Shown: positions 29,592 to 55,676 of the stretch, in pieces | Layout of the letters: each line of letters begins with the position of its first letter | How positions within the stretch are numbered: position 1 is the stretch's first letter | Source of the DNA: Candidatus Bathyarchaeota archaeon | Lineage (GTDB): Archaea > Thermoproteota > Bathyarchaeia > Bathyarchaeales > Bathycorpusculaceae | DNA: 64,000 bases | Direction: 5' to 3' | NCBI GenBank assembly: GCA_963806535.1 | Contig: CAWDYC010000004.1 | Coordinates: 1-64,000 of the forward strand | Notes under the pieces: generated by a model | The model's input: the letters and a program-made list of their open reading frames with translations, nothing else | Database searches by the model: none | What the model was told of the DNA's origin: nothing | Made by a program: the position numbers and the translations under genes

Positions 29592-29614
29592 AAAATTAAA
29601 GGAAAGAAAAAAAA

Positions 29615-36448: not shown

Positions 36449-36510
36449 GTAGACCGAGGGATTTGGACACGGCCCATAGTGGAGATATCACCAGCAGTAC
36501 CTCTTTTTTT
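36449..36510 (-). repeat. Degenerate tRNA-Ala 3' fragment plus arm (att-like site)
   Basis: GTAGACCGAGGGATTTGGACAC followed by GGAGATATCACCAGC...CCTCTTTTTT. Confidence 0.6.
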
Positions 36511-36584
36511 GAATTATACTTTCTTTGAAAATGTCTTAATTTAGCTCCACCATAAAACTAAAATCATCGAAAAGATTACAGGTA

Positions 36585-37139
36585 GTGGTGCTAAGATTGT
36601 TTATTTCAGGTAAGTCAAATTTAACACGAAACATAATATCCCTTGCAATATTTGTTTTCATCATAATGGTTGTCGGACCAATAACAATGCAAGGAGCGTA
36701 CGCAGCTCCCACTATAACGTTAAACCCCACAAGCGGACCAACAGGCACAACCGTGCATATTTACGGTTCAGGATTCACACCGAACGGTCAAATACAGAGC
36801 CAACTTTGGAACGGAACAAGCGCCTACAGCTTCACCGCTGATGCAACTGGGAACCTAAATACGACCACCGTAGTTCCCAATGTAGAGTCAGGACCTTATG
36901 TGTTTATAGTAATAGATGCGTCGAGCCAAGGTACAACGCAAACACAATTCACAGTAACTCAATCATCAACTTCTCCTACGCCAACCACAACCTCTTCTAC
37001 GTCAGCATCGCCCTCACCAACGCCCAGCGTTCCAGAACTTCAGTTGCCAGTTGTTGTTCTAATCCTGTTCATTGCAACATCTAGCTTAGCCGTTTCGACG
37101 GTTAGAAAACGCAAGACGGTTACCATCCAAAGCATTTAA
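36585..37139 (+). CDS. Secreted Ig-like protein with PEF-CTERM-like sorting signal
   Basis: AYA cleavage site, PTSGPTGTTVHIYGSGF, S/T/P linker, VPEL plus TM plus RKRK. Confidence 0.75.
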   Translation: MVLRLFISGKSNLTRNIISLAIFVFIIMVVGPITMQGAYAAPTITLNPTSGPTGTTVHIYGSGFTPNGQIQSQLWNGTSAYSFTADATGNLNTTTVVPNVESGPYVFIVIDASSQGTTQTQFTVTQSSTSPTPTTTSSTSASPSPTPSVPELQLPVVVLILFIATSSLAVSTVRKRKTVTIQSI

Positions 37140-37203
37140 AAAACCTATTTTGTATTTTTTTATAATAAACTTGTAAGAAGCCAAAGCCCCACTATACCAA
37201 GTG

Positions 37204-37265
37204 GTGGACCGGGGGGATTTGAACCCTTTCCCGTGCCGTGATTTCATTCGCAAAACCCCTTTTTT
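37204..37265 (-). repeat. tRNA-Ala 3' fragment plus arm (att-like site)
   Basis: GTGGACCGGGGGGATTTGAACCC matches the tRNA-Ala 3' end apart from one G; then 29 nt and CCCCTTTTTT. Confidence 0.8.
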
Positions 37266-37718
37266 CTTTTGTGCATACTTAGCGAAGGCGAACAAAATGT
37301 ACAAAATCGTTAGTTGCCCTCATTGCGGCAAAATTATCCCGGAGCATACACTCAAATGAGGATCAACACGAAAGATCGTAACTGGTCCAGAGTGTGGCAG
37401 TCAAAGTAACTGCAAAGATGAGGAGGGAAATACACGAATAGGAAAAATTCAGACCTACCTCTGCTGTGATTGCAGCCACAGGGTTTCTTAATAAATTGGT
37501 ATTTTCCAAGATTCTATAGAAAAATTTTCGCTTTTATGAGCGACTTAATAATCTGTTCGATTTCTTTTTCATTTAACATTAACTTAAACTTGATTCGACT
37601 TCGGGCTTTTCCACAAATATTTTCCAGAGGGCGATAATTGTTTACTGGCGCAAAGTAAAGAAAAACCAGAAATTGACAGCGTTTAAACAGCTCAGTCTAA
37701 AGCACAATTTAATTCTGG

Positions 37719-40700
37719 TTAGGTTGGTTCGATTCGATAGTTTTCTTTTCCATTCCTGTTTAGTTTTGGAATCGTCAGGGTGAATTTAGCTCCGTTTCCG
37801 GGGGTGCTGTTTTCCTCAATTTCCCATCCATAAATGTCCATCATTTTTTTGATCAAAAATAGTCCAAATCCTGTGCTGCCGCCTGTGCTATACCCTTCCT
37901 TGAAAAGAAACTGTTTATTCTTAGAAAGTACACCCACTCCATTATCCTCATAAACCAACTTAAGACAGTCCTGACCATCTGTATTTTCAAAGTGAACTCT
38001 TATAGTCGTGGCTTTTTGGCCGTATTTTCGGGTATTGTCGATGAAATTGTAGAACATCTGTCTTAGAAATGAATCAGCTAGAATTTTCAGACCATTGCAT
38101 TCATTAATTATATTGGGAAGTGAACCGGAAAAGAGTGAAACAGCTTCTTTTAGCTTGATCTCAACATCTATGTAAACCAAATCTTCTATTCCTAGTTGTT
38201 CATACATTTTTGCGAACTCAAAGATTTTCACAGATTCTGCCACGGCTCGCTCCATAGTGGTAAGCCCATCCACCACATCTACTAAATCACTGTGCTTTTT
38301 CTTGAGAAGATATGCACAACCATTTACTACTGACAATTTATTGCGAACATCATGTCTAGTTAAACTGCCCACGACACCTAATTTTTCGTTAACTAATACT
38401 AACTGATCCACCATCTGGTTTACTTTTTCTTCAGCTTTTTTGCGCTCAGTAACGTCCCTAGCAATGGCTGCAAAACAACGGGTCTCATTAATTCGTAGCT
38501 CGGTCATAGATATCTCTATTAAAAGTTCAGACCCGTCTTTTCTAAGGGCAGGGAGTTCTTGAATTTCGCCTGTAATCTGTATGTTTTCAGCTAAACTATT
38601 GGTTGAGGTTAGATTAGCATGGTTATTGCGAAACTTTGTCGATGGTATTATTTCGTTTAGTTTTTTGACAACTGCTTCTTCTTTTGTGTAACCAAAAATT
38701 TGTTCAGAAGCTGGATTCCAATATATTATTCGGTCTTTATCATCAAACAGAAATATTGCGTCAATTGCCGATTCACTAATGGCTCTAAACTTAGCGTCAC
38801 TTGCCTAGTAAATCTTGTTCCATAGACTTACGTTTAGTAATGTCTATACTTAGCTCCGATACAGCGATAATTTTGTTATTTTCATCTTTAATTGGTGTGG
38901 CAACGATTTCGACCCAATAGGGCTTGCCATCCACAGTAGTGGAGCAGTACTCATGTGAATCAGAAGTTGTTTTTCCTGCAAAAACCTTCGCAACACCACA
39001 GTCTGGACAAGGTGCCTCCAAAGTGTTTAGTGTCGAGTAGCATAGTTTTCCATTTACATTGCCTTTGTATCTTCTAATAAAGTCGTTTTCCCATAAAATA
39101 TGGTAGTCTTTGCTAATAATAACAAGACCGGCATCAATGCTTGCTGTAACTGACTCAAGCTTTTCTCGCTCTTGCCAAAGAGCACCGTTTGCTTCGATAC
39201 GTTCGGTAATGTCATTGTAGATTGCAATAATGTTTCCATTCGGTAGTTTGTATATCCAGTTTTCGCGCCAGCTACGAATGGTCTTTGTCATCTTTGTAGA
39301 GTGTCGCTGGATAATATTCTGGTTTTCCTGTTCGCCACACTCGTTTAAAAACCTCGAAAATACCAAAACTTTTTACGCTTGGAAAGACTTGTGTCACTCG
39401 CTTGCCAAGAACTGTATCCTTGCCTATTTTCTCGATTTTTTCTGCGGCAGTGTTGAAATTTCTAAAAATAAAATCTTCTCCGTTTTCAACCGCCTCATAA
39501 ATAGCAACTCCACTTGGCATGCTTGAAAACAATTGTCTAAATTGTTCTTCGCTCTGACGCAATGACGCCTCATTTCTTTTCCGTTCAGTGATGTCGGTTA
39601 CTAATTCCAAGTATTGCCGTCTGTCCATTATAATCTATCAACTTCGAATTAATTATTGCTTCAATTTTTCCACCATCTTTAGTGACGAGCTGGTATTCGT
39701 ATGGAGAAACATCTTCTCCTCTCATGTGCTTTGCATAAGACGCCTTCAATAAATCGACGCTTTCGGGACTAGCAATTGAAAGAAAGTTGAAGTTAGGAGA
39801 GTAGAATTCTTTTTTTGAATAGCCCAACGTGTCTTCGCATTTCTTGTTAGCATAAACCACTCTACTCTGAAGATTTATGAAAATCATATTAGGTGATTCT
39901 TCAGCAAGATTTCTGAATTTTTCTTCGCTTTCTTTCAAAGACTCTTCAGTTTTCTTGCGTTCAGTAATATCTGAATTGTAACCACTCCAAAGAATGCTGC
40001 CATCTTCTAACTTTTCTGGAGCAGACTGCCCCCACATCCAACGTATTTTTTGACCTGGAAGTTGTATTCGATACTCACATTGCCAAAGAGATAGATTTGC
40101 TGCCGATTGCTCAATTGAGGCGATTACTTTTTCCAAATCTTCTGGAACTATTGCTTTGGTGATCGGTGAAAAATCTTTTCGAACTTCCTGAGGCGAGCAA
40201 CCAAAAACATCGCGTATCTTGTTAGTTGCAAATGGTACACAAAATGTGCCATCAGGGCTTCTTAAAAACTGAAAAAGCATTCCAGGCGTTTGAGCAGCGA
40301 GTTTCAAAAAGCGAGTTTCGTGATCTTCTAATTCTTCTTTTGTTTTATGACGCTCCACAACTAGTTTGATGCTGTGTGCAAGTTCTCCATAAACGGTTTC
40401 TGGTGAGCCCTGTTTGTTATGATATCCATCTGCGCCAAGGTTTAGCGCCTTGATAGCTACTTCTTCCCTGCCTTTACCAGTAAATAGGATAAATGGAATT
40501 TGATTATTTTGTTCTCGAAGCTCTTTTAGAAATTCCAATCCATTCTTCTGAGGCATTTCATAATCACTAATAACAATATCAAACTTCGCAGATCTTATTT
40601 TTCTGAAGGCCTCATCAACACAACTTGCATGTTCAATTTCGAAGTTGCCTATTTCCAAAAGGATCAACTTTGAGATTTCGAGGATGGAAGAATCATCATC

Positions 40701-40790
40701 AACATGCAAAACTCGAATAACCTTTTCCTTATTTAGGGCAACTAAATCAGTTACTTTTACCTGTATTCCATTCTGGTTGAGGGTTTGCAT
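37719..40790 (-). CDS. Hybrid REC-(PAS)n-histidine kinase, frameshifted
   Basis: REC: HVDDD, SDYEMP, FTGKG; multiple PAS domains; HDVRNKL, NFIDNTRKYG, DNGVG, GFGLFL. Confidence 0.9.
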
Positions 40791-41180: not shown

Positions 41181-41413
41181 TTGACATAGCGCTTCGTCAT
41201 AGGTACGGATTTAGCGGAAGCTTCTACGTCCTCACAATGTACGTTGTATTCTGGCATGCGTAAGGTCTTCCAAAATAAGGGGTATAGAGGAAGAGGTCTT
41301 TCGAGTTTTGTCTTATCATCAGAATCTATAAAAACAAACCTAATAATTCTAAGCCACTTCTTTCTATACCAGCCAATCCATGGAAGACCTTGGTGTTTGT
41401 AAGCGAACCGCAT

Positions 41414-41475
41414 GTGGACCGGGGGGATTTGAACCCAGGCAGAAGTGGAGATGTCACCAGCAATTCCCCTTTTTT
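41414..41475 (-). repeat. tRNA-Ala 3' fragment plus arm (att-like site)
   Basis: GTGGACCGGGGGGATTTGAACCC, 29 nt containing GGAGATGTCACCAGC, then CCCCTTTTTT. Confidence 0.82.
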
Positions 41476-41602
41476 CTTCGGCGCACGCGCAGATGTATCA
41501 AAAATTACAAAACTTTTTTGGAAAAATAATAGGGAAAAAAAACAATTTGCTATCTTATAAGGATTTAGCAAGTTATAAGAATAAAACATCATATATAGAT
41601 AT

Positions 41603-41673
41603 TATTGAGCGAAAGTGCAGTTTACGTTTTTGCTCTCGCTCAGCAAATAAAGGCTTGTGCTTTCGTTCAAATA
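41603..41673 (+). promoter_or_regulatory. Structured 5' leader of surface-protein gene
   Basis: TTGAGCGAAAGTGCAG pairs with CTTGTGCTTTCGTTCAA (G-U pairs); followed by AAAATTAAAGGAAAGAAAAAAATG as in paralog 2. Confidence 0.55.
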
Positions 41674-41693
41674 AAATTAAAGGAAAGAAAAAA

Positions 41694-44438
41694 ATGAAAA
41701 TTTTAAAAAATAAAACCGCGACTATATTAATTGCAACATTTCTAATGATTTCAATGATGGCTTCATTAGCCTTAGTGCCTGTAAAAGGACAATTCGCAGA
41801 AATAACCCCTCCAGCAGGATCTACAGTGCCATCATATGCTTTTCTTAACATAGCACCTAACCCAGCAGGTGTAGGCCAAACAGTGACCCTAGACATGTTC
41901 CTTGCATCGCCTCTACTCACAAGTGAAGGCGCAACGAATATGACGATAGTAGAAACAACACCAAGCGGAACGACAACTACGCTAGGACCATTTACTTCTG
42001 ATGCTACCGGCGGAACATATACAACAATTGTACCTGAAACAACTGGTAACTATACGTTCCAGTTCTTCTATGGTGGACAATTAATGTTCAACGGTCTTTA
42101 TACAGGACCGAGCCATACGGGCGTAGAAACACTTGTAGTTCAGCAAACTTCAATACCATTAAGCTCATATCCAATAACGCCGCTTCCAACGAATTACTGG
42201 CAGAGTCCGGTCACAGCAGAGAACAGTCAAAACTGGTACGCAATTACTGGACCTTGGCTTGGCTACGGTTCCGTTACATTCGCTTCAACAGGTGGCTACA
42301 ACAATACTGGCAACTTTAACCCATACACCCAAGATGTTCTGTCTGGACATGTTCTTTGGACAAAGCCTTGGGCAGTAGGCGGTCTAGCTGGTGGAGACCT
42401 AGGCGGAACTGAACTCAGTAACTTCTGGTCAACCTCTCAGTATTGGCCAAAGTTTGCCCCAGTCATAATGAACGGCATACTCTACTCAACCTGGTACACA
42501 ACAACCACAGGATACTCAAACGGCATCATTGCAATGAACTTGTACGATGGACAAACCCTATGGACACTAAACACCACTAATCCGTTGCTTTGCGGCATGG
42601 AAACTCAATGGAAAACAATTAACATGTACGGCGTTATAGGTCCGTACATCATTACATCAGGAACTCTACCTGGCGTAAATGATGGATTCGGAACAACCGT
42701 CGGGATGTTCGGTCCAACCCTTGGACCACTGGCAGAGTTTAACCTGTATGATGCCTTAACTGGAACATACGTTCTTAGCATTGTCAATGGCACCGCAACT
42801 CCAACATTTACGACAGATGCCAACGGAAACATAATCGGCTACTACACTGATTCTACCCCTGGTACAATCACTACATATGGAACCACAGCCGCAATGGGTG
42901 GATTTCCAACGGTGACAGGGAAAGTGACCATTACGCCTACTAGTCCTCCTTATGTGGTTGAGTGGAACATGTCAAATGCCCTTGCCGCAATAGGAGCCCC
43001 AGGCCAGAGTCAAGCTTGGGGTTGGTCGCCACCAGCGGGCTCAGTGGCTAACTTCGATTACGGAAATGTGTGGGCCACACCGATGGCTAATGTTACTACA
43101 GACACAGGCGCTCCTCTAAACAACGGACAACTAGCTTACGCTACGCAAATAAACGGTATTGGCGGTATGCTAACTAACAACGCAGTGGTATTGACTGGCG
43201 GATTCACTACTGGACAAGGGACTGGAGGCGAGCAAGATGGCTGGCTAATTGTAAGCGCAAAGGATGCAACCACTGGAGCTACGCTATTTGCCAAGAACTA
43301 TACATATCCAAATGTTGAGGCTTTGTTACCTTTCACGAGGACAATAGTGCAAGTCACAGACGGAGAGATAATAATATGCAACCAGGTAAACAATCAGGTT
43401 GACGCCATTAATGCACGTACTGGTAATATCGATTGGAAGACAACACTTCAAGGGTCCAGCGGCGGAACTCCAAATCTATATAACGTCTTTGGCATCGCAA
43501 TTCGCAATGGTCCAGGCATGTCCATCTATGAAGGCTTCGGAGGAGACATATGGGGTGTAAACGATGCGACTGGAAACATAATGTGGTACACGAATACAAC
43601 TGCAATCTTGGGCAATCCAGGGATTGAAACTCCGTACGGCATATGGCCACTGTGGGTCTTCGGTTGCACTTGCGTATCCAACGGTATTGCATACCTGGCT
43701 GTCGGCCATGAGTACAACCCGCCACTATTCCACGGAGCACAACTGCTAGCATTAAACTTGACAAATGGAAATCTAGTATGGAGTGAACTAGACTTTTCCG
43801 TTGAATCCACATCAATTGCACAAGGCATCGTACTGACGCGCAACGCTTACGACAACCAACTCTACTCCATGGGCAAAGGACCAAGCGCAATGACAGTCAC
43901 TGCACCAGATGTCGGAGTCACAACTGCTACTCCAATAACAATAACTGGCACAACAATGGATGTCTCTGCAGGCGCATCGCAAGAAGCGGTCAAAGCAAAC
44001 TTCCCCAATGGTCTACCATGCGTTTCCGATGCTAGCGAGAGTCACTGGATGGAGTATGTATATCAGCAGCAACCGTATCCGACCGGAGCAACAGGTGTTC
44101 CAGTCACTCTAAGCGTAATAGACGCCAACAACAACTTTAGAACCATCGGCACAACCAAAACCGACGCTAGCGGACACTACTCCTATACATGGACACCTGA
44201 CATACCAGGAAACTACACACTCATAGCGGCATTCGCAGGCTCCAACTCATACTACGGATCATCAGATGAAACGAGCTTTTATGCTAGCTCGCCACCATCA
44301 ACACCGACACCCACCGCAACAACAGCCTCTAACTTGGCAACAACATCAATGCTAGAACTTGGAATTGTAGCCATCATAATCGTCATCATCATAATCGGCG
44401 TCGTATTGGCGTTGCTGATGATGAGAAAACACGCATAA
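41694..44438 (+). CDS. PQQ-like beta-propeller cell-surface protein, paralog 3
   Basis: Real start MKILKNK after AAGGAAAG; same conserved motifs as the paralogs; TM plus RKHA. Confidence 0.88.
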   Translation: MKILKNKTATILIATFLMISMMASLALVPVKGQFAEITPPAGSTVPSYAFLNIAPNPAGVGQTVTLDMFLASPLLTSEGATNMTIVETTPSGTTTTLGPFTSDATGGTYTTIVPETTGNYTFQFFYGGQLMFNGLYTGPSHTGVETLVVQQTSIPLSSYPITPLPTNYWQSPVTAENSQNWYAITGPWLGYGSVTFASTGGYNNTGNFNPYTQDVLSGHVLWTKPWAVGGLAGGDLGGTELSNFWSTSQYWPKFAPVIMNGILYSTWYTTTTGYSNGIIAMNLYDGQTLWTLNTTNPLLCGMETQWKTINMYGVIGPYIITSGTLPGVNDGFGTTVGMFGPTLGPLAEFNLYDALTGTYVLSIVNGTATPTFTTDANGNIIGYYTDSTPGTITTYGTTAAMGGFPTVTGKVTITPTSPPYVVEWNMSNALAAIGAPGQSQAWGWSPPAGSVANFDYGNVWATPMANVTTDTGAPLNNGQLAYATQINGIGGMLTNNAVVLTGGFTTGQGTGGEQDGWLIVSAKDATTGATLFAKNYTYPNVEALLPFTRTIVQVTDGEIIICNQVNNQVDAINARTGNIDWKTTLQGSSGGTPNLYNVFGIAIRNGPGMSIYEGFGGDIWGVNDATGNIMWYTNTTAILGNPGIETPYGIWPLWVFGCTCVSNGIAYLAVGHEYNPPLFHGAQLLALNLTNGNLVWSELDFSVESTSIAQGIVLTRNAYDNQLYSMGKGPSAMTVTAPDVGVTTATPITITGTTMDVSAGASQEAVKANFPNGLPCVSDASESHWMEYVYQQQPYPTGATGVPVTLSVIDANNNFRTIGTTKTDASGHYSYTWTPDIPGNYTLIAAFAGSNSYYGSSDETSFYASSPPSTPTPTATTASNLATTSMLELGIVAIIIVIIIIGVVLALLMMRKHA

Positions 44439-44614: not shown

Positions 44615-44636
44615 GTGGTCTGGAGGGATTTTGCAC
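44615..44636 (-). repeat. Degenerate tRNA-Ala 3' fragment
   Basis: GTGGTCTGGAGGGATTTTGCAC, preceded by TTTTGACAAAAA like the TTTTGACAAGA before the 52033 copy. Confidence 0.55.
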
Positions 44637-45023
44637 TCTTGCCACAAAATACGATGAAATTACTGTTAGCGGAACTCAAGTACAATCCTGCAAAGAAACT
44701 AAGAAGGTTCTCAAATGCCTGGAACTCATTAAGCGTCTCAAAGGTGTACTTTTAAACGTAGTAGCATATGTATAAGTATATATACATTGTTTTTTGGCGC
44801 ATCTCCCCCAAAATCCCTTTTCTTTTTGATTTTTCAGCGGATAATTAGCGAACCGAATCATAGATATTTCCGAAAGGAGAACGGCCGAAAAGACTATCTC
44901 TTTACATAAAGAGGGAATCACAATTAAACCAATTGTTCCAGTAAAGAATTGCCTTATGAGGCGGTTTTTTTGGTCATTCGCCTTAGCGCATAAACCATTT
45001 TGTTTCTGTTCTGAGCCAAGATT

Positions 45024-46301: not shown

Positions 46302-46450
46302 TTTTGACGTAGCGTTTTTTGAGCTTAGAGTGGCAGACTGTTTTTACTGAAATTTTACTGGGTTGATTTGTAAGAAGAAGTTCTTGTTACAAGTGTTTAA
46401 AACCAAAATGGACCGATGTTAGGCGCACAGAAAATAAGGAAAGAACAAAC

Positions 46451-49156
46451 ATGAAAATTGCTAAAAATAAAACTATAGTTATTACGATTGCTACATTCCT
46501 AATACTCTCAATGACAGCTTCAATGATACAAGTACCAAATGCTAATGCACATACACCTGCATGGCAGGTTCCAACATACGCCTACATAGCTGTTGCCCCT
46601 AACCCTATAGGGGTTGGTCAGACAGCGTGGATATATGTTTGGATTGACTTATCTTTTCCGAATGCACAACTAGCAAACAACTATAGATGGCATAACTACA
46701 AACTTACCATTACAACACCTAACGGTACAACTGAAACAAAGATATGGGATGTTGTCTCGGACACTACGTCAAATCAGGGTTATTCATACACTCCTACCGA
46801 AGTTGGAACGTACACCCTTAACTTTACTTTCCCAGGACAGGACTACAACACATACAGCCGTGACACCACCTTAGCATTGGTTAACGATACTTTTCTGCCC
46901 AGCACTGCGTCAACGACGCTCATTGTTAAGCAAGAGCCAATACCTGCTGCAATAACAAGCTATCCATTGCCGACTAACTACTGGAGTCGCCCAATATATG
47001 GTGAGAACACTGACTGGTGGTCAATTTCGTCAAACTGGCTAGGTAGTGGTTCACCAGGATCTGGTAGCATGATCGGACCAAATGCGCAGATGTCTCCAGG
47101 AGATGCCGTAGGCTCTGCCACTAATCATGTCATGTGGACATACCAGCTTCAAGAAGGAGGAGTCGTCGGAGGAAGCACTGTCGCTCAAGGAGCCAACTGG
47201 TTTGGTGGGACTGCCTACAATCCTAGATACCAGAATCCAATAATAATGAATGGATACCTATACTACACGAAGCCAGTAAACTGGGCGCCCAGCGCAGGAA
47301 CTGGAGGGCCAACTGTCTGTCAAGACCTATGCACAGGACAAATTATTTGGTCTCGAGATGATGTACCTCAGCTTTCATTCGGCTACATATATAACGTTTG
47401 GACCCCCAATTACCACGGCGTTTATGCAGGAATTTTATTCACTGCTGGATGGGCCCGCGCTTTTGATGCATACACTGGAGACCCACTGTTCAACGTAACT
47501 GGCGTTCCCACAGGCGCAACAGTACTCGGTCCACAAGGCGAACAATTGAAATACGTCATGGCGAACGCAGGTACCATTAATGATCCTGATTGGCGTTTGG
47601 GTCAATGGAACTCGTCCAAACTATTTTTCATCTCTGGATCCGCATCACCAGCAATTACAAACATGACTGGAACAACTGTTACAATCGGGTCAGTAGTCGG
47701 TTCAACTCTCACTGGAACCCTAATAGTCGACGCAAGCATTTCAAATTCGAGTTTATCTACATGCCGTTATGACTGGAACACTTCCATACCATGGCTCAAC
47801 ACAATGGGTGCCACCACAATTGGGTCAAGTCCCGGAGCAAATCCCGTTACAATACTTGCGGCTTTCTACGGAAATATGTTACTTTGCAGAAACGGCACAT
47901 ACCCCACTATATCTCCAAGTTCAGTACCCACAGCAACTTGGGCTCCGTACACATACTTCGCCGTTAACCTCAATGCATCTAGGGGTGCAATTGGTTCGAT
48001 ACTGTGGATGCAGACATATAACCCCCCACCAGGCAACCTTACTGTAATATTTGCCGGAGCAGATCTGAAGACTGGTGTCTTCGTTGAAAACTATAGAGAA
48101 GGTATGCAATATGTTGGATACAGTCTGTCAACAGGGCAGAAATTATGGGGTCCAACTGCGTCTCAAGCTGACTGGGACTATTATGGTAGCCCAGGACCTG
48201 GCTCTTTAGACAACCAAATTGCTTACGGGAGACTCTATAGCGATGGAATGGCAGGGATACTTTACTGTTACGATTTGACGAATGGAAACCTATTGTGGAC
48301 GTATGGTAATGGCGGAGAAGGCAACAGCACTTACAGCGGCTTTAACACAGTTTACGGTAATTATCCAACAATGATAACTGATGTAGGCAACGGGATAATA
48401 TACACGGTTACCTGTGAGCACACTATCACTGCCCCAATCTACAAGGGTGCATTGGCGCGTGCCATTAATGCAACTGATGGAACAGAAATCTGGTCTCTTT
48501 CAGATTTCACCGGTGCATTCTCTGCTTCCCCAGGCTACGCTATCGCAGATGGCTATTCAACATTCTTTAACGAATATGACAGTCAAGTGTACAGTCTTGG
48601 TAGAGGACCTAGTGCTACTACAGTTTCAGCGCCAGACATCGCTATATCATTCGGGGCATCCATAGTAATCAAAGGTACAGTCACTGACATTTCTGCTGGT
48701 ACAAAGCAGAGCCAGCAAGCAGCTGACTTTCCAAATGGTGTTCCAGTTGCATCTGATGATAGTATGAAAGATTGGATGGGTTATGTTTATCAGCAAAAAC
48801 CGCTGCCGACCAACGCAACCGGCGTTACGGTGTCCATTAGTGTATTGGACTCTAACAACAACTCTAGAACTATCGGCACTACAACAACTGATCTCAGCGG
48901 AGCTTACAGCTACCAATGGAAACCAGACATACCAGGGAAATACACGGTTTACGCTTCTTTCGCTGGAACTAATGGTTACTGGCCATCATCTTCAGAAACA
49001 AGCTTCGCAGTCGACACAGCAATCCCAACACAAATTCCGATAATAAATGCGTCATCCAACGACTCAATGTATTTCGTAGCTAGCACAGTTGCTATAATCG
49101 TTGCAATAGCTATAGTTGGTGCTCTAATACTGATATTAGTTAGGAAGCGACCGTAA
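46451..49156 (+). CDS. PQQ-like beta-propeller cell-surface protein, paralog 4
   Basis: ANA-HTPAW, PTYAYIAVAPNPIGVGQT, WMGYVYQQKP, TM plus RKRP. Confidence 0.88.
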   Translation: MKIAKNKTIVITIATFLILSMTASMIQVPNANAHTPAWQVPTYAYIAVAPNPIGVGQTAWIYVWIDLSFPNAQLANNYRWHNYKLTITTPNGTTETKIWDVVSDTTSNQGYSYTPTEVGTYTLNFTFPGQDYNTYSRDTTLALVNDTFLPSTASTTLIVKQEPIPAAITSYPLPTNYWSRPIYGENTDWWSISSNWLGSGSPGSGSMIGPNAQMSPGDAVGSATNHVMWTYQLQEGGVVGGSTVAQGANWFGGTAYNPRYQNPIIMNGYLYYTKPVNWAPSAGTGGPTVCQDLCTGQIIWSRDDVPQLSFGYIYNVWTPNYHGVYAGILFTAGWARAFDAYTGDPLFNVTGVPTGATVLGPQGEQLKYVMANAGTINDPDWRLGQWNSSKLFFISGSASPAITNMTGTTVTIGSVVGSTLTGTLIVDASISNSSLSTCRYDWNTSIPWLNTMGATTIGSSPGANPVTILAAFYGNMLLCRNGTYPTISPSSVPTATWAPYTYFAVNLNASRGAIGSILWMQTYNPPPGNLTVIFAGADLKTGVFVENYREGMQYVGYSLSTGQKLWGPTASQADWDYYGSPGPGSLDNQIAYGRLYSDGMAGILYCYDLTNGNLLWTYGNGGEGNSTYSGFNTVYGNYPTMITDVGNGIIYTVTCEHTITAPIYKGALARAINATDGTEIWSLSDFTGAFSASPGYAIADGYSTFFNEYDSQVYSLGRGPSATTVSAPDIAISFGASIVIKGTVTDISAGTKQSQQAADFPNGVPVASDDSMKDWMGYVYQQKPLPTNATGVTVSISVLDSNNNSRTIGTTTTDLSGAYSYQWKPDIPGKYTVYASFAGTNGYWPSSSETSFAVDTAIPTQIPIINASSNDSMYFVASTVAIIVAIAIVGALILILVRKRP

Positions 49157-49158
49157 AA

Positions 49159-51686
49159 ATGCCAAGCCTATCGGCGTTGGACAAACAGTAAACGTCAACT
49201 TCTTCCTAGCAGTACCGATACAATCCAGTGAAGGACCAACAAACATGACTGTCAAAATCACAAACCCAGACGGTAGCACTGAAACCAGAGGTCCATACAC
49301 AGGCGACGCAACAGGCGGGTCCCACTTTGACTTTGCTCCAGATAAAGTCGGCAATTGGACTTTCCAGTTCTTCTACGGGGGGCAAACAACAACAACCGGC
49401 GTCGGATTTACAGACCTTAAAGAGATGCCCAGCCAAAGTGAAGTCTATACACTCGTAGTGCAACAGGAACCGATAACTCAAAGTTCATACCCAATAGCAC
49501 CGCTACCCACAAAGTACTGGGAAACCCCAGTCTCAGCGCAAAACGTCCAAGAATGGTACAAGATCATGGGTCCTTGGCTTGGAACCGGATTAGTTGGGTC
49601 AGCAAAAACTGGGCTATACAATGAATCGAGCACTTACAATCCATACACTGATTCAGTACTTTCGGGGCACGTTCTCTGGACTAAACCTTGGTGCGCAGGC
49701 GGTGTGGTTGGTGGAGCCGCAGGCGGAACAGAAGACACAGGAAACTACTGGTCAACAAGGCAGTACATGCCTCAATATGCCCCCGTGATAATGAATGGCA
49801 GGATGTATTCTACGTGGTATGCAGAAACACAAGGGTACTCAGCTGGCATTGTTTGCACGGACCTCTATACAGGTGAAACACTGTTCACAATAAACACAAC
49901 TAGTGTGTTGCAATGCGGAATGGAAACCGAATGGAAGACAGCTAACATGTATGGCGTCGTTGGTCCATACCTTATTACTGTCGGCACTCTTTCAGCATCC
50001 GAAACTGGCGGGACTAAACCAGCCAATGTTGGAACACAATACAACATGTATTCTGCCTTTACTGGCAATTATGTCCTTAGCATTGTTAACGGTACTTCAC
50101 TGACGCTTAAGACGGATGATAATGGAAACTTGATAGGTTACTACATCAACAGTACTGTTGGCACAATGAACATCTATAATCAAGCAGGTCTCAAAGCGAC
50201 GGTAAACATCACTGCAAGCCAACCCTTCCTATGCTGTTTCAACATGTCGCAAGCACTCTGGCAAAGTGGCAGTAGTTTTCAATGGAGTCCATCCCAAAAT
50301 GCAGTTGTTAACTTCGGGTTGGGAGTTATGTGGGCGAAACCAGTACCTACCCAAATTAACGGCGTACCTATAAACAACCCCCCTCTCAACTTAGGTATAT
50401 CCCCATGGTGTGCGCTGACTGGCAATTCAGTGATATTGACTTCTGGAATCATTCACATGGCAAATCAACAGCCAGGCTATATAGTCTTGTGTGGCATGGA
50501 TCAAACTACCGGCGAAGTACTAATGTGCAAGAACTACACCTATCCAGAGTGTCAGTCATTACAACCCTTTACTAACGATCAATACATCGTCATAAATGGA
50601 CTCGTGGTCTTGGTTAACATGGAAAATTGGAAATGCGACGCTATCGACTTAAGCACCGGCAACATAGCATGGAAGACAACTCTCACAACTCCATACGGTG
50701 ACGGAACACCAAACGTATACTCAATACTTGGTGGCATAAACTTCATCGGACAAGCAAATGGCAGGCTGTTTATTGAGGGCTTTGGCGGAGACATGTGGGC
50801 TCTTAACGCAACGACCGGAAACCAACTGTGGTATACCAACACAACAACTCTCATTGGAGCTCCAAGCCTTGAATCACCATACGGCGTCTGGCCGTTGTGG
50901 CCTTGGTCTGGTACCCTGTGTTTCTCAAATGACGTCGCTTATTGTGCTGTAGGTCATGAGTATGATCCGCCGCTGTTCCATGGTGCACAACTTCTCGCGG
51001 TGAACCTAACTAGCGGAGAGCTAGTCTGGAACGAATTAGGCTTTTACGATGTTAGTCTTTCAATTGCTTATAACACTCTGCTGACGCTGAATTGTTACGA
51101 CAATCAGATATATGCCTTCGGCAAGGGACCAACCTCTACCACTGTTAATGCCCCCAGCGTTGGAGTGACAACCGCTACGCCGATAACGATTACGGGCACT
51201 GTGATGGATGTTTCCGCTGGTGTACAGCAGTCTCAGGTTGCAAAAGACTTCCCCAATGGGCTTCCATGTGTTTCTGACGCAAGCCAGAGCAAGTGGATGG
51301 AATATGTCTACCAAGACCAAGTAATGCCGAGCAATGCTACAGGCGTCACCGTTACACTAGGCGTTCTTGACTCTAACAATAACTTCCGACAAATCGGCAC
51401 GACAACATCCGATGCTAGTGGTAAATATGGTTTCACTTGGACTCCAGATATACCAGGCAATTATACACTCTATGCAAGCTTTGCAGGCTCCAACTCTTAT
51501 TATCCATCGTCAGCTGAAACATACATCTATGCCAGCACTCCAGCACCAACAGTATCTCCGTATCCTGTGCAATCGAATCCTTTGCCTTTAACTGAAATGT
51601 ACATTGCTGCAGCAGCAGTTGCGATGATAGTTGCAGTAGCTATAGTCGGCGCTCTACTACTTGTAGCAGTTAGGAAACGACCATAA
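49159..51686 (+). CDS. PQQ-like beta-propeller protein, paralog 5, lacking signal peptide and leader
   Basis: Homology begins at PIGVGQTVNVNFFL (49167), 10 nt after the paralog 4 stop; the rest is intact to TM plus RKRP. Confidence 0.8.
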
Positions 51687-51987: not shown

Positions 51988-52032
51988 TAAATGAATAATC
52001 AAAAAATTGAGAAGATCACTTTTTTGACAAGA

Positions 52033-52258: not shown

Positions 52259-54316
52259 CTAACGCGCTTCCCTTGCTCGAGGTGGGTACATGGTTATAAC
52301 TATATCTCTGCCAATTGTTCCTTCAGTTCCGGGGCCGGAATATTTTGACGCAGGATGAAAGAAAGTTACGAACGCGTCTAAACCATTGTACTCAATATTT
52401 GTTTTTACGCCGGAAGGTAGCATGTACTCAACTACCCCGCTTCTGAGTTCACTGTAGCCTTCGAGCAGTATGCAAGCAGGCGGCAGACTAAGTGATGAAA
52501 GAAGCGGGATAGGCTTAGTCCATCCAGCGAAAACAATGTTCCCTTGAACTCGTACCTGGAGCTCGTCTTTTTTGACGAGATGTACGTTTTTTTCGGCAGG
52601 AGTGCCTGCATTTTGTGTTTTCTCAAGCTCTACAGCTCTGGGATTGTCTGTAACGATAGCTGCTGGTACGTAAGCATAGCCTTTTGGCGTTTCAAGCCAC
52701 AAGTAAACCACTAGCCTGTTACCACCACCTTGCTGGGATTGCTCGTTGAAATGGTTGACCCAAATCATCATATCAGGCAGGTTAAAGCTGTCTGGCGGAT
52801 GGATAACGGCGTGTCCGCTGCTACCGTAGACTCTTGTTATGTCCTTGAGCCAGTTTTTGCCTGGGCATTTCTTGGCGTTGCCAATCGTGTTCAAAATGTC
52901 TTTTTCGGTGATTATACCCGGTTTCTCCACGACTTCATGGATCATTTTCTGGTATGCCCCATCTGGCTTGGACCAAACGTGTTCTTCTTCACGAAGAGGA
53001 GTGCTTGCACGTATAGGCGGTTTCAGGATAGAGTCCAGAGTGATGACTGAAGGAACGGATGCTTTTTTCCAAACTTCATTTAACATCTTTTTAGTCTTTT
53101 CCACGTATTCAAAATCATCAGTATAGAAATGCCGCGTTAAGGCGGATTTCTGATTGGGGGAAACTTGAGACTGGAAGAGGGTTTTTCCATCAACGATTAC
53201 AGTGTCAAAGTAGCTTGTAGACACATGCTTGACAGCACAGCATTTCATTAGTTCTTGAGCAGCAATCAAGTTTTCCTTGATTATGGGCGACATAATTTTA
53301 ACGGAGATTCCTCTTTCAATCTGTTCTCTCAGCAGGGAAATATGTTTCCAAGATTCAATGAGACCTTTTGAAGAGATCATCATCATGATTTCCTCTTGAG
53401 CTGACTTTAGAGCCTCATTGTAGGTCTCAAGGGCAGTGTGAGCGTCACTGATAACGCGTGTTGTCGGTGTTGGTTTACCAGTTTCAATCTCCGAAATTTT
53501 CATATTTATGTCTGTGGAGTCGATCCACAAATCCTCAAAGACAGCCGTAAACGCTTGTACCAGAGACTTACAGTTCGTCCAAAGGCATACGTCATCCTTT
53601 TCTGCCTTTTCCGTTCTTGGCGTGATGAAGAACAATATTTCTTCGTTATCTCTTGCAACCATTCTGGGAAAAAGGCTTAAACCTAAATCAGGGTTTCTTG
53701 CCTTCAGGTTGAAGTTGGTCTTAGATGTTCTCTTGAGAATTGTTTTCATGATATTCAGATTTTTTTCTGACAATTCGGTGAGAAAACGATACGTAATTTG
53801 TGACCTCAAAGGATGACTAAAGGCCACATCGAAAATGCCAAATTGATCAGCACGCATCATGCTTGGAACAGTGGTTGCTGTTAACAGTTGATGTTTAGTA
53901 TCTAGAATCATCTTAGATATTCTTGAGTAGATTCTTTTGTTTCCTTTGATTACAGCAAATTTTTCTAAAGAAGGTTCTAACTCTGTATTGTGTTTTTTCT
54001 TTAGGTAGTCAAGAAGTTCTTTCCTGCTTTTCTCTATCAGGGCAACTTCCTTTTGCCTAGCTCCAATAATAGAATCTAGAATGTTCTCGAAGGGAACTAC
54101 TGTGAAGTGTGTGGGAAACTCTACAGTTGACTCCGCAAAACCCTTGGCTTGAAGCCTATTTAGAATGCGAAAAACCTGCGCCTTATCTTTCCCAAGAAGT
54201 CTGGCGATTTCGTTAACTTTCATCGCATCGTGTTTGGCGAGGAAAATGTACACCTCTGCCTCTTTTTCGGTCAAGCCAGAATTAATGAGAACCTTTTTTA
54301 TTGTTTCCTCGCTCAA
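52259..54316 (-). CDS. Large TrmB family regulator with tandem effector domains
   Basis: GLTEKEAEVYIFLAK...EIARLL...VFRILNRLQAKGF HTH; two repeats ending FEDLW/LNEVW; extra C-terminal domain. Confidence 0.85.
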   Translation of the reverse strand: MSEETIKKVLINSGLTEKEAEVYIFLAKHDAMKVNEIARLLGKDKAQVFRILNRLQAKGFAESTVEFPTHFTVVPFENILDSIIGARQKEVALIEKSRKELLDYLKKKHNTELEPSLEKFAVIKGNKRIYSRISKMILDTKHQLLTATTVPSMMRADQFGIFDVAFSHPLRSQITYRFLTELSEKNLNIMKTILKRTSKTNFNLKARNPDLGLSLFPRMVARDNEEILFFITPRTEKAEKDDVCLWTNCKSLVQAFTAVFEDLWIDSTDINMKISEIETGKPTPTTRVISDAHTALETYNEALKSAQEEIMMMISSKGLIESWKHISLLREQIERGISVKIMSPIIKENLIAAQELMKCCAVKHVSTSYFDTVIVDGKTLFQSQVSPNQKSALTRHFYTDDFEYVEKTKKMLNEVWKKASVPSVITLDSILKPPIRASTPLREEEHVWSKPDGAYQKMIHEVVEKPGIITEKDILNTIGNAKKCPGKNWLKDITRVYGSSGHAVIHPPDSFNLPDMMIWVNHFNEQSQQGGGNRLVVYLWLETPKGYAYVPAAIVTDNPRAVELEKTQNAGTPAEKNVHLVKKDELQVRVQGNIVFAGWTKPIPLLSSLSLPPACILLEGYSELRSGVVEYMLPSGVKTNIEYNGLDAFVTFFHPASKYSGPGTEGTIGRDIVITMYPPRAREAR

Positions 54317-54446
54317 ACCAGCTGCTCCAATGGTTGTTGGTGATAGACTTTGTCACTCGTACAAGTTTAAGTGACCTCATGGGCTTAATTGTTTTTTGAT
54401 GGTTTGAACCGAATTTCGCATTAATCTGGTAGGGAGGTGAGAAAAA

Positions 54447-55037
54447 ATGAAAAAGAAGACTCTTTTGATCTGCATCATCGTATTAACGACTATACTCATG
54501 ACTTCATCGATGATATCATTGTCCCAAGCAGGTTTGCTCTTTAAACCCAAGCAAGAATATGTGATCTACGACTTTAGAGTAAGCATTAACCCAGCCGGTG
54601 TTGTCAATACTCTTACGGATACCAGCGCTTTCCCAGTCGTCGTCCAAGAAATCTACAGCACAGATGCAGCTATAGTATCGGCAAGCGTCACAATAAACGG
54701 GGTGGCATATACTTATCCTAAGGATTTCGACTACAGTTATACCGGCCATATGGAACTCAATTATGTTACGGGATATGGCTTGGATATAATTCAGGAGAAG
54801 CTTACCTTCAAAAACTTGCCTGGGCATCCAATTCTGAACGGGCGAGCAGAAGAGAAAGTTAGTGGCTTAATTCTCTCTCCCACTATGGACATCAGTCATT
54901 GGGAAGAGTTTGGCAATTTCCAACTGAGCGGTACTAAAATGTTCAGTATTGTACACGGCGACGGGGCTGCAATGGGTGGAGTTTCAACAGGTTATGTCGT
55001 ACGCCACTTCGGCCTAATTAGCGACTGGCCTCTCTAA
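54447..55037 (+). CDS. Secreted hypothetical protein
   Basis: RBS GGAGGTGA, signal peptide MKKK...SQA. Confidence 0.75.
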   Translation: MKKKTLLICIIVLTTILMTSSMISLSQAGLLFKPKQEYVIYDFRVSINPAGVVNTLTDTSAFPVVVQEIYSTDAAIVSASVTINGVAYTYPKDFDYSYTGHMELNYVTGYGLDIIQEKLTFKNLPGHPILNGRAEEKVSGLILSPTMDISHWEEFGNFQLSGTKMFSIVHGDGAAMGGVSTGYVVRHFGLISDWPL

Positions 55038-55106
55038 CAAACATAGAGCTTACAAATTTCGTTCCTCTTTTTTTCAGTTTCATCTTTCTAGAAGGGTGCG
55101 GTTCGA

Positions 55107-55460
55107 TTGAGTAAAGAAAAGATGCTCAAAACACTCGTAAGTTTAGGGTTCACAGAAACAGACGCCCAGGTCTACTTCTATCTCACAACCGAAGGTCTCC
55201 AAAAAGCTGCAGACATAACTGAAGCACTGAAACTTCACAAGCAGCAACTCTACAGAAGCCTGAAACGTCTGTTTAGGAAAGGCATAGTAAAGACTACTCT
55301 TGAGCGTCCTTCACGGTTTTCGGTTGCGTTATCGATCGAGAAAACTTTAGACTTGTTGATCGAAACCAAAAAGGAACAAACTTTGGAGTTGCAAGCAAGC
55401 CGCGAAGAACTCCTTTCTTCTTGGAGATCTATGATTGAGAAGCATTCTTCAGACAGCTGA
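55107..55460 (+). CDS. Stand-alone TrmB-type HTH protein
   Basis: LGFTETDAQVYFYL...LYRSLKRLFRKGIV. Confidence 0.75.
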   Translation: MSKEKMLKTLVSLGFTETDAQVYFYLTTEGLQKAADITEALKLHKQQLYRSLKRLFRKGIVKTTLERPSRFSVALSIEKTLDLLIETKKEQTLELQASREELLSSWRSMIEKHSSDS

Positions 55461-55602
55461 CATATCTGCATTTTTTGGTTGTAAACTATCTCAATTGCTC
55501 CAAGACGAGCAAACCATTGTCTGCAACAGCAACCCAGAGAGCATTAAGCCTCCAACAATGATCATTTTAGTCAAATAGAGCTGAATTGAGGTTGAAGTGA
55601 AG

Positions 55603-55676
55603 TGGACCGGGGGGGATTTGAACCCCCGACCTCTTGAGTGCAAGTCAAGCGTTCATACCAGCTGAACTACCGGCCC
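55603..55676 (-). tRNA. tRNA-Ala(TGC)
   Basis: GGGCCGG acceptor with G3-U70, anticodon stem CTTGA/TCAAG around loop CTTGCAC, T-arm GGGGG-TTCAAAT-CCCCC. Confidence 0.96.

What the first reader, a model, noticed from the sequence alone, without database searches (positions are those of the whole stretch)
36449..55676. tRNA-Ala-anchored, integrase-free gene-cassette array (integron-like)
Seen: an intact tRNA-Ala(TGC) at 55603-55676 (-) and five co-oriented copies of its 3' end downstream, at 52033, 44615 (degenerate), 41414, 37204 and 36449 (degenerate). They cut about 19 kb into units of about 3.6, 7.4, 3.2, 4.2 and 0.75 kb. Each unit carries self-contained cargo (TrmB regulators plus secreted protein; TrmB plus two surface propellers; one surface propeller; sensor kinase; PEF-CTERM-like protein), and I see no integrase in any of them. 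Known: tyrosine-integrase islands regenerate a tRNA 3' fragment, and integrons stack integrase-free cassettes that each carry a recombination site. Inference: small cassettes with a shared att-like site are captured serially at the tRNA by an integrase acting in trans, remodelling surface and sensing genes.
Basis: partly seen in the sequence, partly recalled or inferred. Interest (0 to 1): 0.87.

Follow-up and report, generated by a model that had tools for sequence, protein, structure and literature searches.

The report
Decayed integrated elements stacked at tRNA-Ala
The repeated tRNA-Ala tail pieces are real, but they are the outer scars of a family of integrase-carrying mobile elements of Bathyarchaeia that inserted one after another at this tRNA gene and then lost their integrases, which is a known kind of genome island rather than a new integron-like system.

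Summary
An intact tRNA-Ala(TGC) lies at 55602-55676(-). Three exact co-oriented 22-nt copies of its 3' end lie at 37204, 41414 and 52033, with a degenerate copy at 36449 and a doubtful one at 44615. Each good copy is fused to a conserved ~50-nt "arm". Arm plus fragment is a repeat found here almost only in Bathyarchaeia. It occurs in 61 of 61 genus genomes searched, is joined to the 3' ends of many different tRNAs, and lies in co-oriented arrays downstream of tRNA genes. In relatives the matching end of the unit carries a tyrosine integrase with an N-terminal zinc ribbon ("Int-A", 390-446 aa). It sits beside the tRNA and converges on it. One complete example is tRNA-Leu | Int-A | cargo | arm-fragment. 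Truncated Int-A pieces abut tRNAs or fragments in 20 of 80 loci. The window keeps one such remnant at 37360-37488(+) (E 2.3e-6), and I found no full-length Int-A in the assembly (91.75% complete). The array is therefore a tandem accretion of integrative elements followed by integrase loss. Mobilisation of integrase-less units in trans remains possible but is not shown.

The parts
55602..55676 (-). intact tRNA-Ala(TGC); anchor (attL side) of the array
   Evidence: ARAGORN; Rfam RF00005 70.7 bits
52031..52101 (-). arm + tRNA-Ala 3' fragment (attR-type junction) closing the newest unit; exact 22-mer at 52033-52054
   Evidence: (49.4 bits)
52259..55460 (.). cargo of unit 1: long TrmB-family regulator 52259-54316(-), 196-aa ORF without Pfam match 54447-55037(+), short TrmB 55107-55460(+)
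   Evidence: Pfam
44615..44637 (-). doubtful, degenerate tRNA-Ala 3' fragment without recognisable arm
   Evidence: not found by the profile
45024..51686 (.). cargo of unit 2: TrmB regulator 45024-45812(-), two propeller surface proteins 46451-49156(+) and 49245-51686(+)
   Evidence: Pfam; paralogy
41413..41480 (-). arm + tRNA-Ala 3' fragment, best preserved copy in the window (1 mismatch in the 17-nt arm core)
   Evidence: (66.1 bits)
41445..44438 (+). cargo of unit 3: propeller surface protein (PQQ_2, Big_3_5); the listed GTG start lies inside the arm, and an in-frame ATG lies in the repeat 41674-41716 that is shared with the ATG start region (46431-46473) of the 901-aa paralogue
37204..37274 (-). 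arm + tRNA-Ala 3' fragment; fragment exact, arm decayed
   Evidence: 56.7 bits
37360..37488 (+). degenerate remnant of the zinc-ribbon N-terminal module of the Int-A integrase, about 85 nt from the arm and on the strand opposite to the tRNA, as in other arrays
   Evidence: hmmsearch with a 23-member Int-A profile, E 2.3e-6, profile positions 31-71, next best hit E 0.53; tblastn E 0.03 and 0.17
37719..40790 (-). cargo of unit 4: sensor kinase in three ORFs (Response_reg+PAS 39585-40790; PAS 38797-39366; HATPase_c 37719-38507)
   Evidence: Pfam
36448..36514 (-). arm + degenerate tRNA-Ala fragment; outermost recognisable junction
   Evidence: (55.0 bits)
36585..37139 (+). 184-aa ORF of unit 5, no family match
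   Evidence: Pfam
25941..36447 (.). older part of the variable region, with no arm detected: ORFs 26134-27176, a GT2 glycosyltransferase 27805-28503(-), a propeller gene broken into three ORFs (29615-32422), and a PQQ_2/InlB-repeat protein 32966-36082(-)
25614..25940 (+). conserved chromosomal flank gene (109 aa). In four relatives (L045, L047, L048, L049) its orthologue lies 0.6-6 kb from tRNA-Ala, or just beyond the last arm-fragment (L045)
   Evidence: tblastn synteny

Best explanation
The 19-kb stretch is the tRNA-proximal part of an insertion hot spot of about 30 kb. Members of one Bathyarchaeia family of integrative elements inserted there one after another into the 3' end of tRNA-Ala(TGC). 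An intact element reads tRNA (attL) | tyrosine integrase Int-A with its 3' end toward the tRNA | cargo | conserved arm | copy of the tRNA 3' segment (attR). Each new insertion regenerates the tRNA and pushes older elements outward, leaving one arm-fragment junction per event. The integrase genes were then lost by deletion, and cargo was retained: TrmB regulators, propeller surface proteins and a sensor kinase. Shown here: the junctions, their family-wide conservation, the physical link to Int-A in relatives, the integrase remnants, and the variability of the locus. Inferred: that Int-A catalyses the recombination, that its zinc-ribbon domain reads the 17-nt arm core, and the order of events.
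For: (1) There are three exact fragment copies and four arm-fragment profile hits, all co-oriented with the tRNA. In the whole assembly the 23-nt core occurs only in this array and the tRNA, apart from two weaker hits inside other tRNA genes. (2) The arm is a lineage-wide element. A covariance model matched 61 of 61 genus genomes, with 1-34 matches each. An exact pattern scan found 101 stretches, and 77 of the 80 listed titles name Bathyarchaeota or Bathyarchaeia. There were 141 arm hits in those 80 loci, 38 loci had 2 or more, and in no locus did arms lie on both strands. (3) The arm is fused to 3' ends of different tRNAs (Ala, Leu, Arg-CCT, Pro, Cys and others). The assembly has a second array downstream of tRNA-Cys on C5, with an exact 26-nt tRNA-Cys tail. 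(4) Integrase link. Complete element in L238: tRNA-Leu c[10750-10837], Int-A 9536-10708(+), arm-fragment 4647-4715(-) with 22 nt identical to the tRNA-Leu tail. Full Int-A lies beside tRNA-Ala in L041 and L053, and remnants in L046 and L047. Int-A pieces occur in 20 of 80 loci, and 26 of 27 pieces lie on the strand opposite to the tRNA. C-terminal pieces lie 46-60 nt after a fragment, and N-terminal pieces 7-53 nt before an arm. Int-A matched in 54 of 61 genus genomes, with many truncated copies, and scores 81.3 bits on PF00589. (5) A remnant lies in the window at 37360-37488(+). (6) The locus varies among 14 relatives: arms in 5 and none in 9, with the conserved flank gene 25614-25940 close to the tRNA or just beyond the last arm. 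(7) In other arrays similarity between genomes starts or stops at the T-loop of the fragment (L108/L152).
Against: Four of the five units in the window show no integrase trace at all (all other hits E 0.53 or worse). For those units, integrase loss is inferred from relatives, not seen. Unit 3 and the end of unit 2 are collinear paralogues (propeller 3' part plus a 54-nt flank at 87% identity), so part of the array may have grown by duplication rather than insertion. The three exact fragments are identical to one another but one C shorter than the tRNA, so they are not simple displaced copies of the present tRNA tail. Two genomes with Int-A beside tRNA-Ala show no arm in the 20 kb fetched (L041, L053). 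The one arm-rich element family may therefore not cover all Int-A elements. In L090 an arm lies in the same stretch as an integrase of another family with a non-matching fragment. No excision product, empty site or read evidence could be obtained.
Confidence: 0.75

Rival explanations
1. Integrase-less cassettes. The units never carried an integrase. Each is a small non-autonomous element with an arm-plus-core site, captured and shuffled at the tRNA by an Int-A-type integrase supplied in trans. This would be analogous to integron cassettes or to cis-mobilisable elements.
For: In a tandem array every internal junction has the arm of one unit on one side and the start of the next unit on the other, so any unit is flanked by usable sites (inference). 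Units are often only 0.1-1.4 kb. Of the 216 non-propeller interior ORFs selected, 150 were scanned and matched 141 Pfam families. No integrase was among the 25 families listed, which are those with at least 2 members. A ~1-kb unit of 85% identity lies between Leu-type fragments in L137 and non-Leu fragments in L134. The arm core is nearly invariant in many integrase-less units, although that set was selected by this motif.
Against: Many short units are demonstrably integrase genes with internal deletions (L169, L046), so small size does not imply a cassette. The window has an integrase remnant. The arms in the window are decayed to different degrees (1, 1, 4 and 7 mismatches in the 17-nt core by my reading of the alignment, and unrecognisable at 44615), as expected for inert scars. 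I found no full-length Int-A in this assembly, which is 91.75% complete.
Confidence: 0.15
2. Tandem segmental duplication. One ancestral insertion created a single arm-fragment junction next to a propeller gene, and unequal crossing-over between repeats then multiplied propeller-plus-fragment units.
For: Collinear similarity 42252-44615 versus 49572-52033 with constant offset of about 7300. The three exact fragments share the same one-base-shorter C-run. The propeller genes are paralogues.
Against: This cannot explain the unrelated cargo of units 1, 4 and 5, the different arm sequences next to each fragment, the integrase remnant, or arrays at other tRNAs with heterogeneous cargo. The propeller family has many paralogous matches on six contigs (C3, C4, C5, C7, C10, C11), so paralogy does not need local duplication.
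Confidence: 0.07
3. The arm plus fragment is a functional host element, such as a tRNA-like small RNA, terminator or insulator, rather than a recombination scar.
For: The T-arm hairpin is followed by a second possible 5-bp/7-nt hairpin in the arm. One copy (G003_9471) has changes that restore pairing (my reading). A T-run follows the arm on the strand opposite to the tRNA.
Against: There is no Rfam match except the tRNA itself. The consensus fold found only 3 pairs, in the T-arm. The 5' strand of the T-stem is often not complementary to the 3' strand. There is a consistent physical association with integrase genes and tRNA anchors. Copies decay.
Confidence: 0.03

Closest known systems
Tandem arrays of tRNA-targeting tyrosine-integrase elements in archaea (integrated plasmids, cryptic integrated elements; integrases that stay intact on integration)
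   Same: The target is the 3' end of a tRNA gene. There is a direct repeat of the tRNA tail at the distal boundary. The integrase gene lies beside the tRNA. The regenerated site is re-used, giving arrays, and the integrase is lost after integration. [quoted passage not shown] Passages read in PMC8371274 mention tandem integration at one locus and integrase gene loss after integration.
   Different: This is a Bathyarchaeia-specific family. It has a strongly conserved ~50-nt arm, with a nearly invariant 17-nt core, that is shared by elements aimed at many different tRNAs. The integrase has an N-terminal zinc ribbon. There are very many short remnants per genome (up to 34 model matches). My four paper searches (and the 'find') turned up no description of this family. 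Subscription journals and supplements were not searchable.
Integrons and clusters of attC sites lacking an integrase (CALINs)
   Same: Co-oriented arrays of short units, each with one recombination site. Cargo is mostly accessory and heterogeneous. There is usually no integrase inside the units. Passages of PMC9668308 read describe archaeal CALINs and possible action of integrases in trans.
   Different: The site is an arm plus a tRNA tail, not an attC palindrome. The anchor is a tRNA gene, not attI beside intI. Units are the remains of elements that carried their own integrase. Gene orientation within units is mixed. That paper has no occurrence of 'tRNA' or 'Bathyarchae'.
Cis-mobilisable elements and site-specific accretion in streptococcal integrative elements (recalled; only the search listing of PMC5704250 was seen)
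   Same: att-flanked units without recombination genes sit in tandem with integrase-bearing relatives at a tRNA-type site. Mobilisation by the neighbour's integrase is conceivable.
   Different: No mobilisation has been shown here, there is no conjugation context, and the host is an archaeon.
SSV1-type 'suicidal' integrases of hyperthermophilic archaea
   Same: They are archaeal, target tRNA genes, and leave remnants and arrays in chromosomes (abstract of PMC7253208 in the listing).
   Different: In SSV1-type elements attP lies inside the integrase gene, which is split on integration. Here full-length Int-A ORFs sit intact 42-60 nt from the tRNA (L041, L053, L238).

Membership tests
Integron (intI + attI + attC cassette array) | Integron integrase gene adjacent to the array's insertion point | tested here: not met
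   No PF00589 or PF16795 match between 36 and 56 kb in six frames. The genes on the other side of the tRNA are an adenosine kinase and an Mrp/ParA ATPase. The nearest integrase-like ORF (61543-62373) belongs to a sporadic family found in 15 of 61 genus genomes and does not track the arms.
Integron (intI + attI + attC cassette array) | Each cassette ends in an attC site, an imperfect palindrome folding into a hairpin | tested here: not met
   The repeated site is a conserved arm plus a tRNA 3' segment. The consensus fold gave only 3 pairs, in the T-arm. No attC-specific detector was run.
tRNA-targeting tyrosine-integrase integrative element (tandem genomic islands) | Direct repeat of the tRNA 3' end at the distal boundary, co-oriented with the tRNA | tested here: met
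tRNA-targeting tyrosine-integrase integrative element (tandem genomic islands) | Tyrosine integrase gene inside the element, next to the tRNA | tested here: inconclusive
   In the window there is only a 43-codon N-terminal remnant. The feature is met in relatives: L238, L041, L053 and L239 have full genes, and remnants occur in 20 of 80 loci. PF00589 scores 81.3 bits.
tRNA-targeting tyrosine-integrase integrative element (tandem genomic islands) | Presence or absence varies between related genomes at the same site | tested here: met
   Of 14 relatives' loci, 5 have arms and 9 have none. The flank gene 25614-25940 lies next to the tRNA or the last arm.
tRNA-targeting tyrosine-integrase integrative element (tandem genomic islands) | Excision to a circle with attP, and an empty attB | not testable with these tools
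   No sequencing run was listed.
SSV1-type integrase elements | attP inside the integrase ORF, so the gene is split into two parts on integration | tested here: not met
   Intact 390-446-aa ORFs end 42-60 nt from the tRNA.
Cis-mobilisable / non-autonomous att-flanked elements | Unit flanked by att sites of a resident integrase-bearing element and lacking its own recombinase | tested here: inconclusive
   The units are flanked by arm-fragment sites and lack intact integrases. I found no full-length Int-A in this assembly, and at least one unit is a decayed autonomous element.
Cis-mobilisable / non-autonomous att-flanked elements | Demonstrated excision or transfer when the integrase is supplied | not testable with these tools
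   This needs reads or experiments.

The most novel reading that the evidence does not exclude
Because every internal junction of an array joins the arm of one unit to the start of the next, the integrase-less units may still be live substrates. These are mostly single genes for propeller surface proteins, TrmB regulators and assorted enzymes. Int-A integrases of co-resident or incoming elements would excise, reorder and re-insert them at tRNA genes. Bathyarchaeia would then have a tRNA-anchored functional analogue of an integron that shuffles surface and sensing genes. A small stand-alone zinc-ribbon protein encoded beside some arms might act as a directionality or arm-binding factor.
Probability: 0.15. 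Interest if true: 0.7.

Novelty: new member of a known kind. Interest (0 to 1): 0.33.

Why it matters
The finding does not reveal a new recombination system. It does define, from sequence alone, a prolific and apparently undescribed family of integrative elements in uncultured soil and peat Bathyarchaeia. The definition covers its attachment-site anatomy (17-nt arm core plus the tRNA T-loop-to-tail segment), its zinc-ribbon tyrosine integrase, its range of tRNA targets and its typical cargo. This gives annotators a simple marker for genomic islands in these MAGs. It explains why surface-protein and regulator genes cluster downstream of tRNA genes. It also supplies candidate site and integrase pairs that could be tested as genetic tools for a lineage with no genetic system.

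Tried and rejected
Split or permuted tRNA halves. I considered that arm plus fragment could be a 3' half of a split tRNA. I rejected this because no complementary partner of the arm exists on either strand of the assembly and the homology to the tRNA begins only at the T-loop.

Arm as an anticodon arm of another tRNA. No tRNA of the assembly resembles it.

Transposon with terminal inverted repeats or a long target duplication. In the flanks I read, each unit showed one arm only. No dedicated inverted-repeat search was run. I did not pursue this further once the integrase link was found.

The integrase-like ORF pair in the window (61068-61550, 61543-62373) as the trans-acting enzyme. Its family is in 15 of 61 genus genomes and absent from arm-rich ones such as G003, G016, G042 and G045.

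A second integrase family of 476-480 aa beside tRNA-Gln and tRNA-Lys (L090, L094). The arm in L090 carries a non-matching fragment, so there is no link. An ORF of 477 aa in L089 (12900-14333) is not an integrase relative.

Viral source. Ten IMG/VR contigs hold the 17-mer, but none has the adjacent T-loop, so these are chance matches.

Orthology of the flank of 52033 with a fragment in G013. Similarity is limited to the arm-fragment itself, so I dropped that claim.

Reads. No sequencing run was listed for window:46000-55999, and no RNA holder was listed. Read laying was therefore not used, and assembly artefact could not be tested by reads. The recurrence of such arrays in dozens of independent assemblies, including single-contig ones (G003), argues against artefact.

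Supplementary files of papers were not consulted, and those of PMC6563490 and PMC8371274 might list related integrases.

Covariation in the arm hairpin could not be tested fairly, because alignment A4 was drawn from loci selected by the arm motif itself.
Full report
OBSERVATION. The window equals contig C4:1-64000 of a 2.95-Mb, 12-contig assembly. It holds one tRNA gene, tRNA-Ala(TGC) at 55602-55676 on the minus strand (ARAGORN; Rfam 70.7 bits). The plus-strand 22-mer GTGGACCGGGGGGATTTGAACC is the reverse complement of the T-loop-to-acceptor tail of that tRNA with one C fewer. It occurs exactly at 37204, 41414 and 52033, against none in 100 shuffles. The one-base difference explains why the tRNA's own 25-mer with up to 3 mismatches found only the tRNA. 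In the whole assembly the core occurs only here and in the tRNA. Two weaker hits lie inside the tRNA-Arg(TCG) and tRNA-Ala(CGC) genes. The copy at 36449 is degenerate in the tRNA part. The copy at 44615 is weak, about 17 of 23 positions with an indel, and not convincing by itself.

THE ARM. The alignment of the copies showed that similarity continues for about 50 nt beyond the tRNA-derived part, on the side facing the interior of each unit. Read in the tRNA's sense, this "arm" is an A-run, GGGG, a few bases, a 17-nt core GCGGGTGA(C/T)ATCTCCAC and a variable spacer of 6-9 nt. Then come GGTTCAAATCC and the rest of the tRNA tail. The same arm-plus-fragment stands downstream of tRNA-Ala in relatives of the same genus.

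DISTRIBUTION OF THE ARM. A covariance model built from 14 copies matched all 61 genus genomes searched, with 1 to 34 matches each, many in tight clusters. An exact pattern scan of species-representative genomes found 101 stretches. Of the 80 listed titles, 77 name Bathyarchaeota or Bathyarchaeia, one says "uncultured archaeon" and two say Gemmatimonad*. In those 80 loci a profile found 141 arms. Thirty-eight loci had two or more, and in no locus did arms lie on both strands. Spacing runs from about 80 nt to several kb.

The arm is joined to the tails of different tRNAs: Ala, Leu, Arg(CCT), Pro(GGG), Cys and others. The 5' strand of the T-stem in the copies is often not complementary to the 3' strand, so tRNA-derived sequence starts at about the T-loop. 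The assembly itself has a second array downstream of tRNA-Cys on contig C5. Its first fragment is an exact 26-nt copy of the tRNA-Cys tail.

WHERE THE INTEGRASE IS. The units in the window hold no intact integrase. Among 150 interior ORFs sampled from the 216 non-propeller ORFs of 600 aa or less in the 80 loci, 141 Pfam families were hit. No integrase was among the 25 families listed, which are those with at least two members. However, an all-against-all clustering of ORFs near arms gave a family present in 6 loci. This family turned out to be C-terminal pieces of one tyrosine integrase family, here called Int-A. Full-length Int-A is 421-446 aa in most cases and 390 aa in L238. It scores 81.3 bits on PF00589 and has an N-terminal C-x2-C...C-x2-C zinc ribbon that scores 24.2 bits, below cut-off, on Zn_ribbon_InsA.

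Int-A lies immediately downstream of tRNA-Ala, convergent with it, in two relatives (L041, L053). Internally deleted or truncated remnants lie there in two more (L046, L047). A complete element is seen in L238. It reads tRNA-Leu(CAG) c[10750-10837], Int-A 9536-10708(+), about 4.8 kb of cargo, then arm-fragment 4647-4715(-). Twenty-two nt of that fragment are identical to the tRNA-Leu tail, and an older integrase-less unit follows.

With a profile of 23 full-length members, Int-A pieces were found in 20 of the 80 loci. Of 27 pieces, 26 lie on the strand opposite to the tRNA sense. C-terminal pieces lie 46-60 nt after a fragment or tRNA. N-terminal zinc-ribbon pieces lie 7-53 nt before an arm. 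Some units of about 0.6-1 kb are nothing but an internally deleted Int-A gene between the tRNA and the arm (L169; L046). A genus search found Int-A in 54 of 61 genomes, with many truncated copies. Several are co-located with arms in the expected order, for example G070:C26, G018:C173, G002:C3, G059:C5 and G046:C3.

THE WINDOW AGAIN. The same profile run on all six frames of the window gave one significant hit, 37360-37488(+). It has E 2.3e-6 and covers profile positions 31-71, and the next best hit has E 0.53. This is a degenerate zinc-ribbon module with its first cysteine lost. It lies about 85 nt from the arm of fragment 37204 and on the strand opposite to the tRNA, the place and orientation seen in other arrays.

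Genome-wide, the assembly has no full-length Int-A. It has a multiply interrupted copy beside tRNA-Ser(CGA). It has short C-terminal pieces beside tRNA-Ser(GGA) and tRNA-Leu(TAG), one near tRNA-Arg(TCG), and one inside the tRNA-Cys array. It also has two shorter recombinases (315 and 333 aa) that lack the N-terminal part. Completeness is 91.75%, so a missing copy cannot be excluded.

By my reading of the alignment, the arm cores in the window differ from the consensus by 1 (41414), 1 (36449), 4 (52033) and 7 (37204) positions. The core is unrecognisable at 44615. This suits scars of different ages.

THE LOCUS IN RELATIVES. Adenosine kinase and tRNA-Ala are neighbours in 13 of the 14 loci fetched; in L050 no tRNA was found. 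A 109-aa gene orthologous to window 25614-25940 lies 0.6-6 kb from the tRNA in L048, L049 and L047. In L045 it lies just beyond the last arm-fragment. In this window the variable region is therefore about 30 kb. Beyond 36449 it contains a propeller gene broken into three ORFs (29615-32422) and a 1038-aa PQQ_2/InlB-repeat protein. Arms are present in 5 of the 14 loci and absent from 9. In other arrays similarity between genomes begins or ends at the T-loop of a fragment. Examples are a nitroreductase unit in L108 and L152, and a 1-kb unit between Leu-type fragments in L137 but other fragments in L134.

MECHANISM. The best-supported reading is classical. Int-A recombines an element-borne attP (arm, T-loop-to-tail copy, short trailer) with the 3' end of the matching tRNA gene. 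That leaves the intact tRNA followed by the integrase gene on one side and arm-plus-fragment on the other. Repeated use of the regenerated tRNA stacks elements, and deletions then remove integrases. The anatomy and the associations are shown here. Catalysis by Int-A, recognition of the 17-nt core by the zinc ribbon, and the exact crossover point are inferred.

Two things stay unexplained. First, the three exact fragments share a C-run one base shorter than the tRNA's, as do many copies elsewhere. Second, the propeller-plus-flank segments of units 2 and 3 are collinear paralogues. This may reflect local duplication, or simply that propeller genes are a very large family with matches on six contigs and the commonest cargo near arms (20 of 80 loci).

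COMPARISON AND NOVELTY. Tandem integration at one tRNA and loss of integrases after integration are described for archaea (passages read in PMC6563490, and PMC8371274). Integrons differ in every defining part, and the archaeal integron paper mentions neither tRNA nor Bathyarchaeia. SSV1-type splitting integrases are excluded because Int-A ORFs are intact beside the tRNA.

What is new is the family itself, with its arm, its zinc-ribbon integrase, its breadth of tRNA targets and its abundance. My searches found no description of it, but that library lacks most subscription journals, and supplements were closed.

The bolder reading is that integrase-less units are still shuffled in trans like cassettes. 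It is not excluded, and I give it about 15%.

VERDICT. This is a new member of a known kind, and I score interest at 0.33.

Noticed in passing
own genome, contig C5:150183-159291 (outside the window): A second co-oriented arm-fragment array lies downstream of tRNA-Cys(GCA) c[159216-159291]. Copies are at about 158117 (exact 26-nt tRNA-Cys tail), 154221, 151770 and 150183. An Int-A C-terminal piece lies at 154283-154513(+).
   Followed up: partly
window 61068-62373 (+): Two overlapping ORFs (160 and 276 aa) together resemble a 400-445-aa integrase-like protein of another, sporadic family (15 of 61 genus genomes; same position only in G020). PF00589 scores only 21.4 bits. The gene is probably frameshifted and belongs to a different element on the other side of the tRNA.
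   Followed up: partly
window 56342-57207 (+); 37719-40790 (-); 59391-60641 (-): Several genes look interrupted or shortened. The Mrp/ParA ATPase is in two ORFs. The sensor kinase is in three. The LeuA-like ORF starts at position 84 of the HMGL profile. These are either pseudogenes or frameshift errors of the assembly.
   Followed up: no
window 44513-44569 and 51805-51858; also C7:149151-149207, C7:58872-58927, C9:51944-51996: A conserved ~55-nt element (87-93% identical) lies just downstream of propeller genes. It is much better conserved than the genes themselves. Its function is unknown.
   Followed up: no
L108:588-716(-), and the same kind of ORF in L106, L109, L119, L169, L239: Small intact ORFs of about 43-50 aa encode only the zinc-ribbon module (C-x2-C...C-x2-C, ending ...RFS). 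They lie directly beside arms and are more alike among themselves than to the N-termini of full integrases. They may be a stand-alone arm-binding or directionality factor rather than debris.
   Followed up: partly
window 85-128 (-): An arm-like remnant (profile positions 6-49, E 0.0016) without a tRNA fragment lies at the very start of the contig.
   Followed up: no
L090 (7920-9350) and L094 (7025-8467): A second integrase family of 476-480 aa is aimed at tRNA-Gln and tRNA-Lys. In L090 the last ~55 nt of the ORF overlap the tRNA gene on the opposite strand.
   Followed up: partly
window 41445-51686 and many places on C3, C4, C5, C7, C10, C11: The propeller surface-protein genes form a very large paralogous family (63-76% nucleotide identity, matches on six contigs). 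Several copies lie near tRNA genes, and the family is the commonest cargo near arms in other genomes.
   Followed up: partly
L239 (array at tRNA-Ala) and L206: Within one array, fragments of different tRNA types occur, as do hybrid fragments (T-stem of one type, acceptor end of another). This hints at recombination between non-matching sites at the shared T-loop.
   Followed up: no
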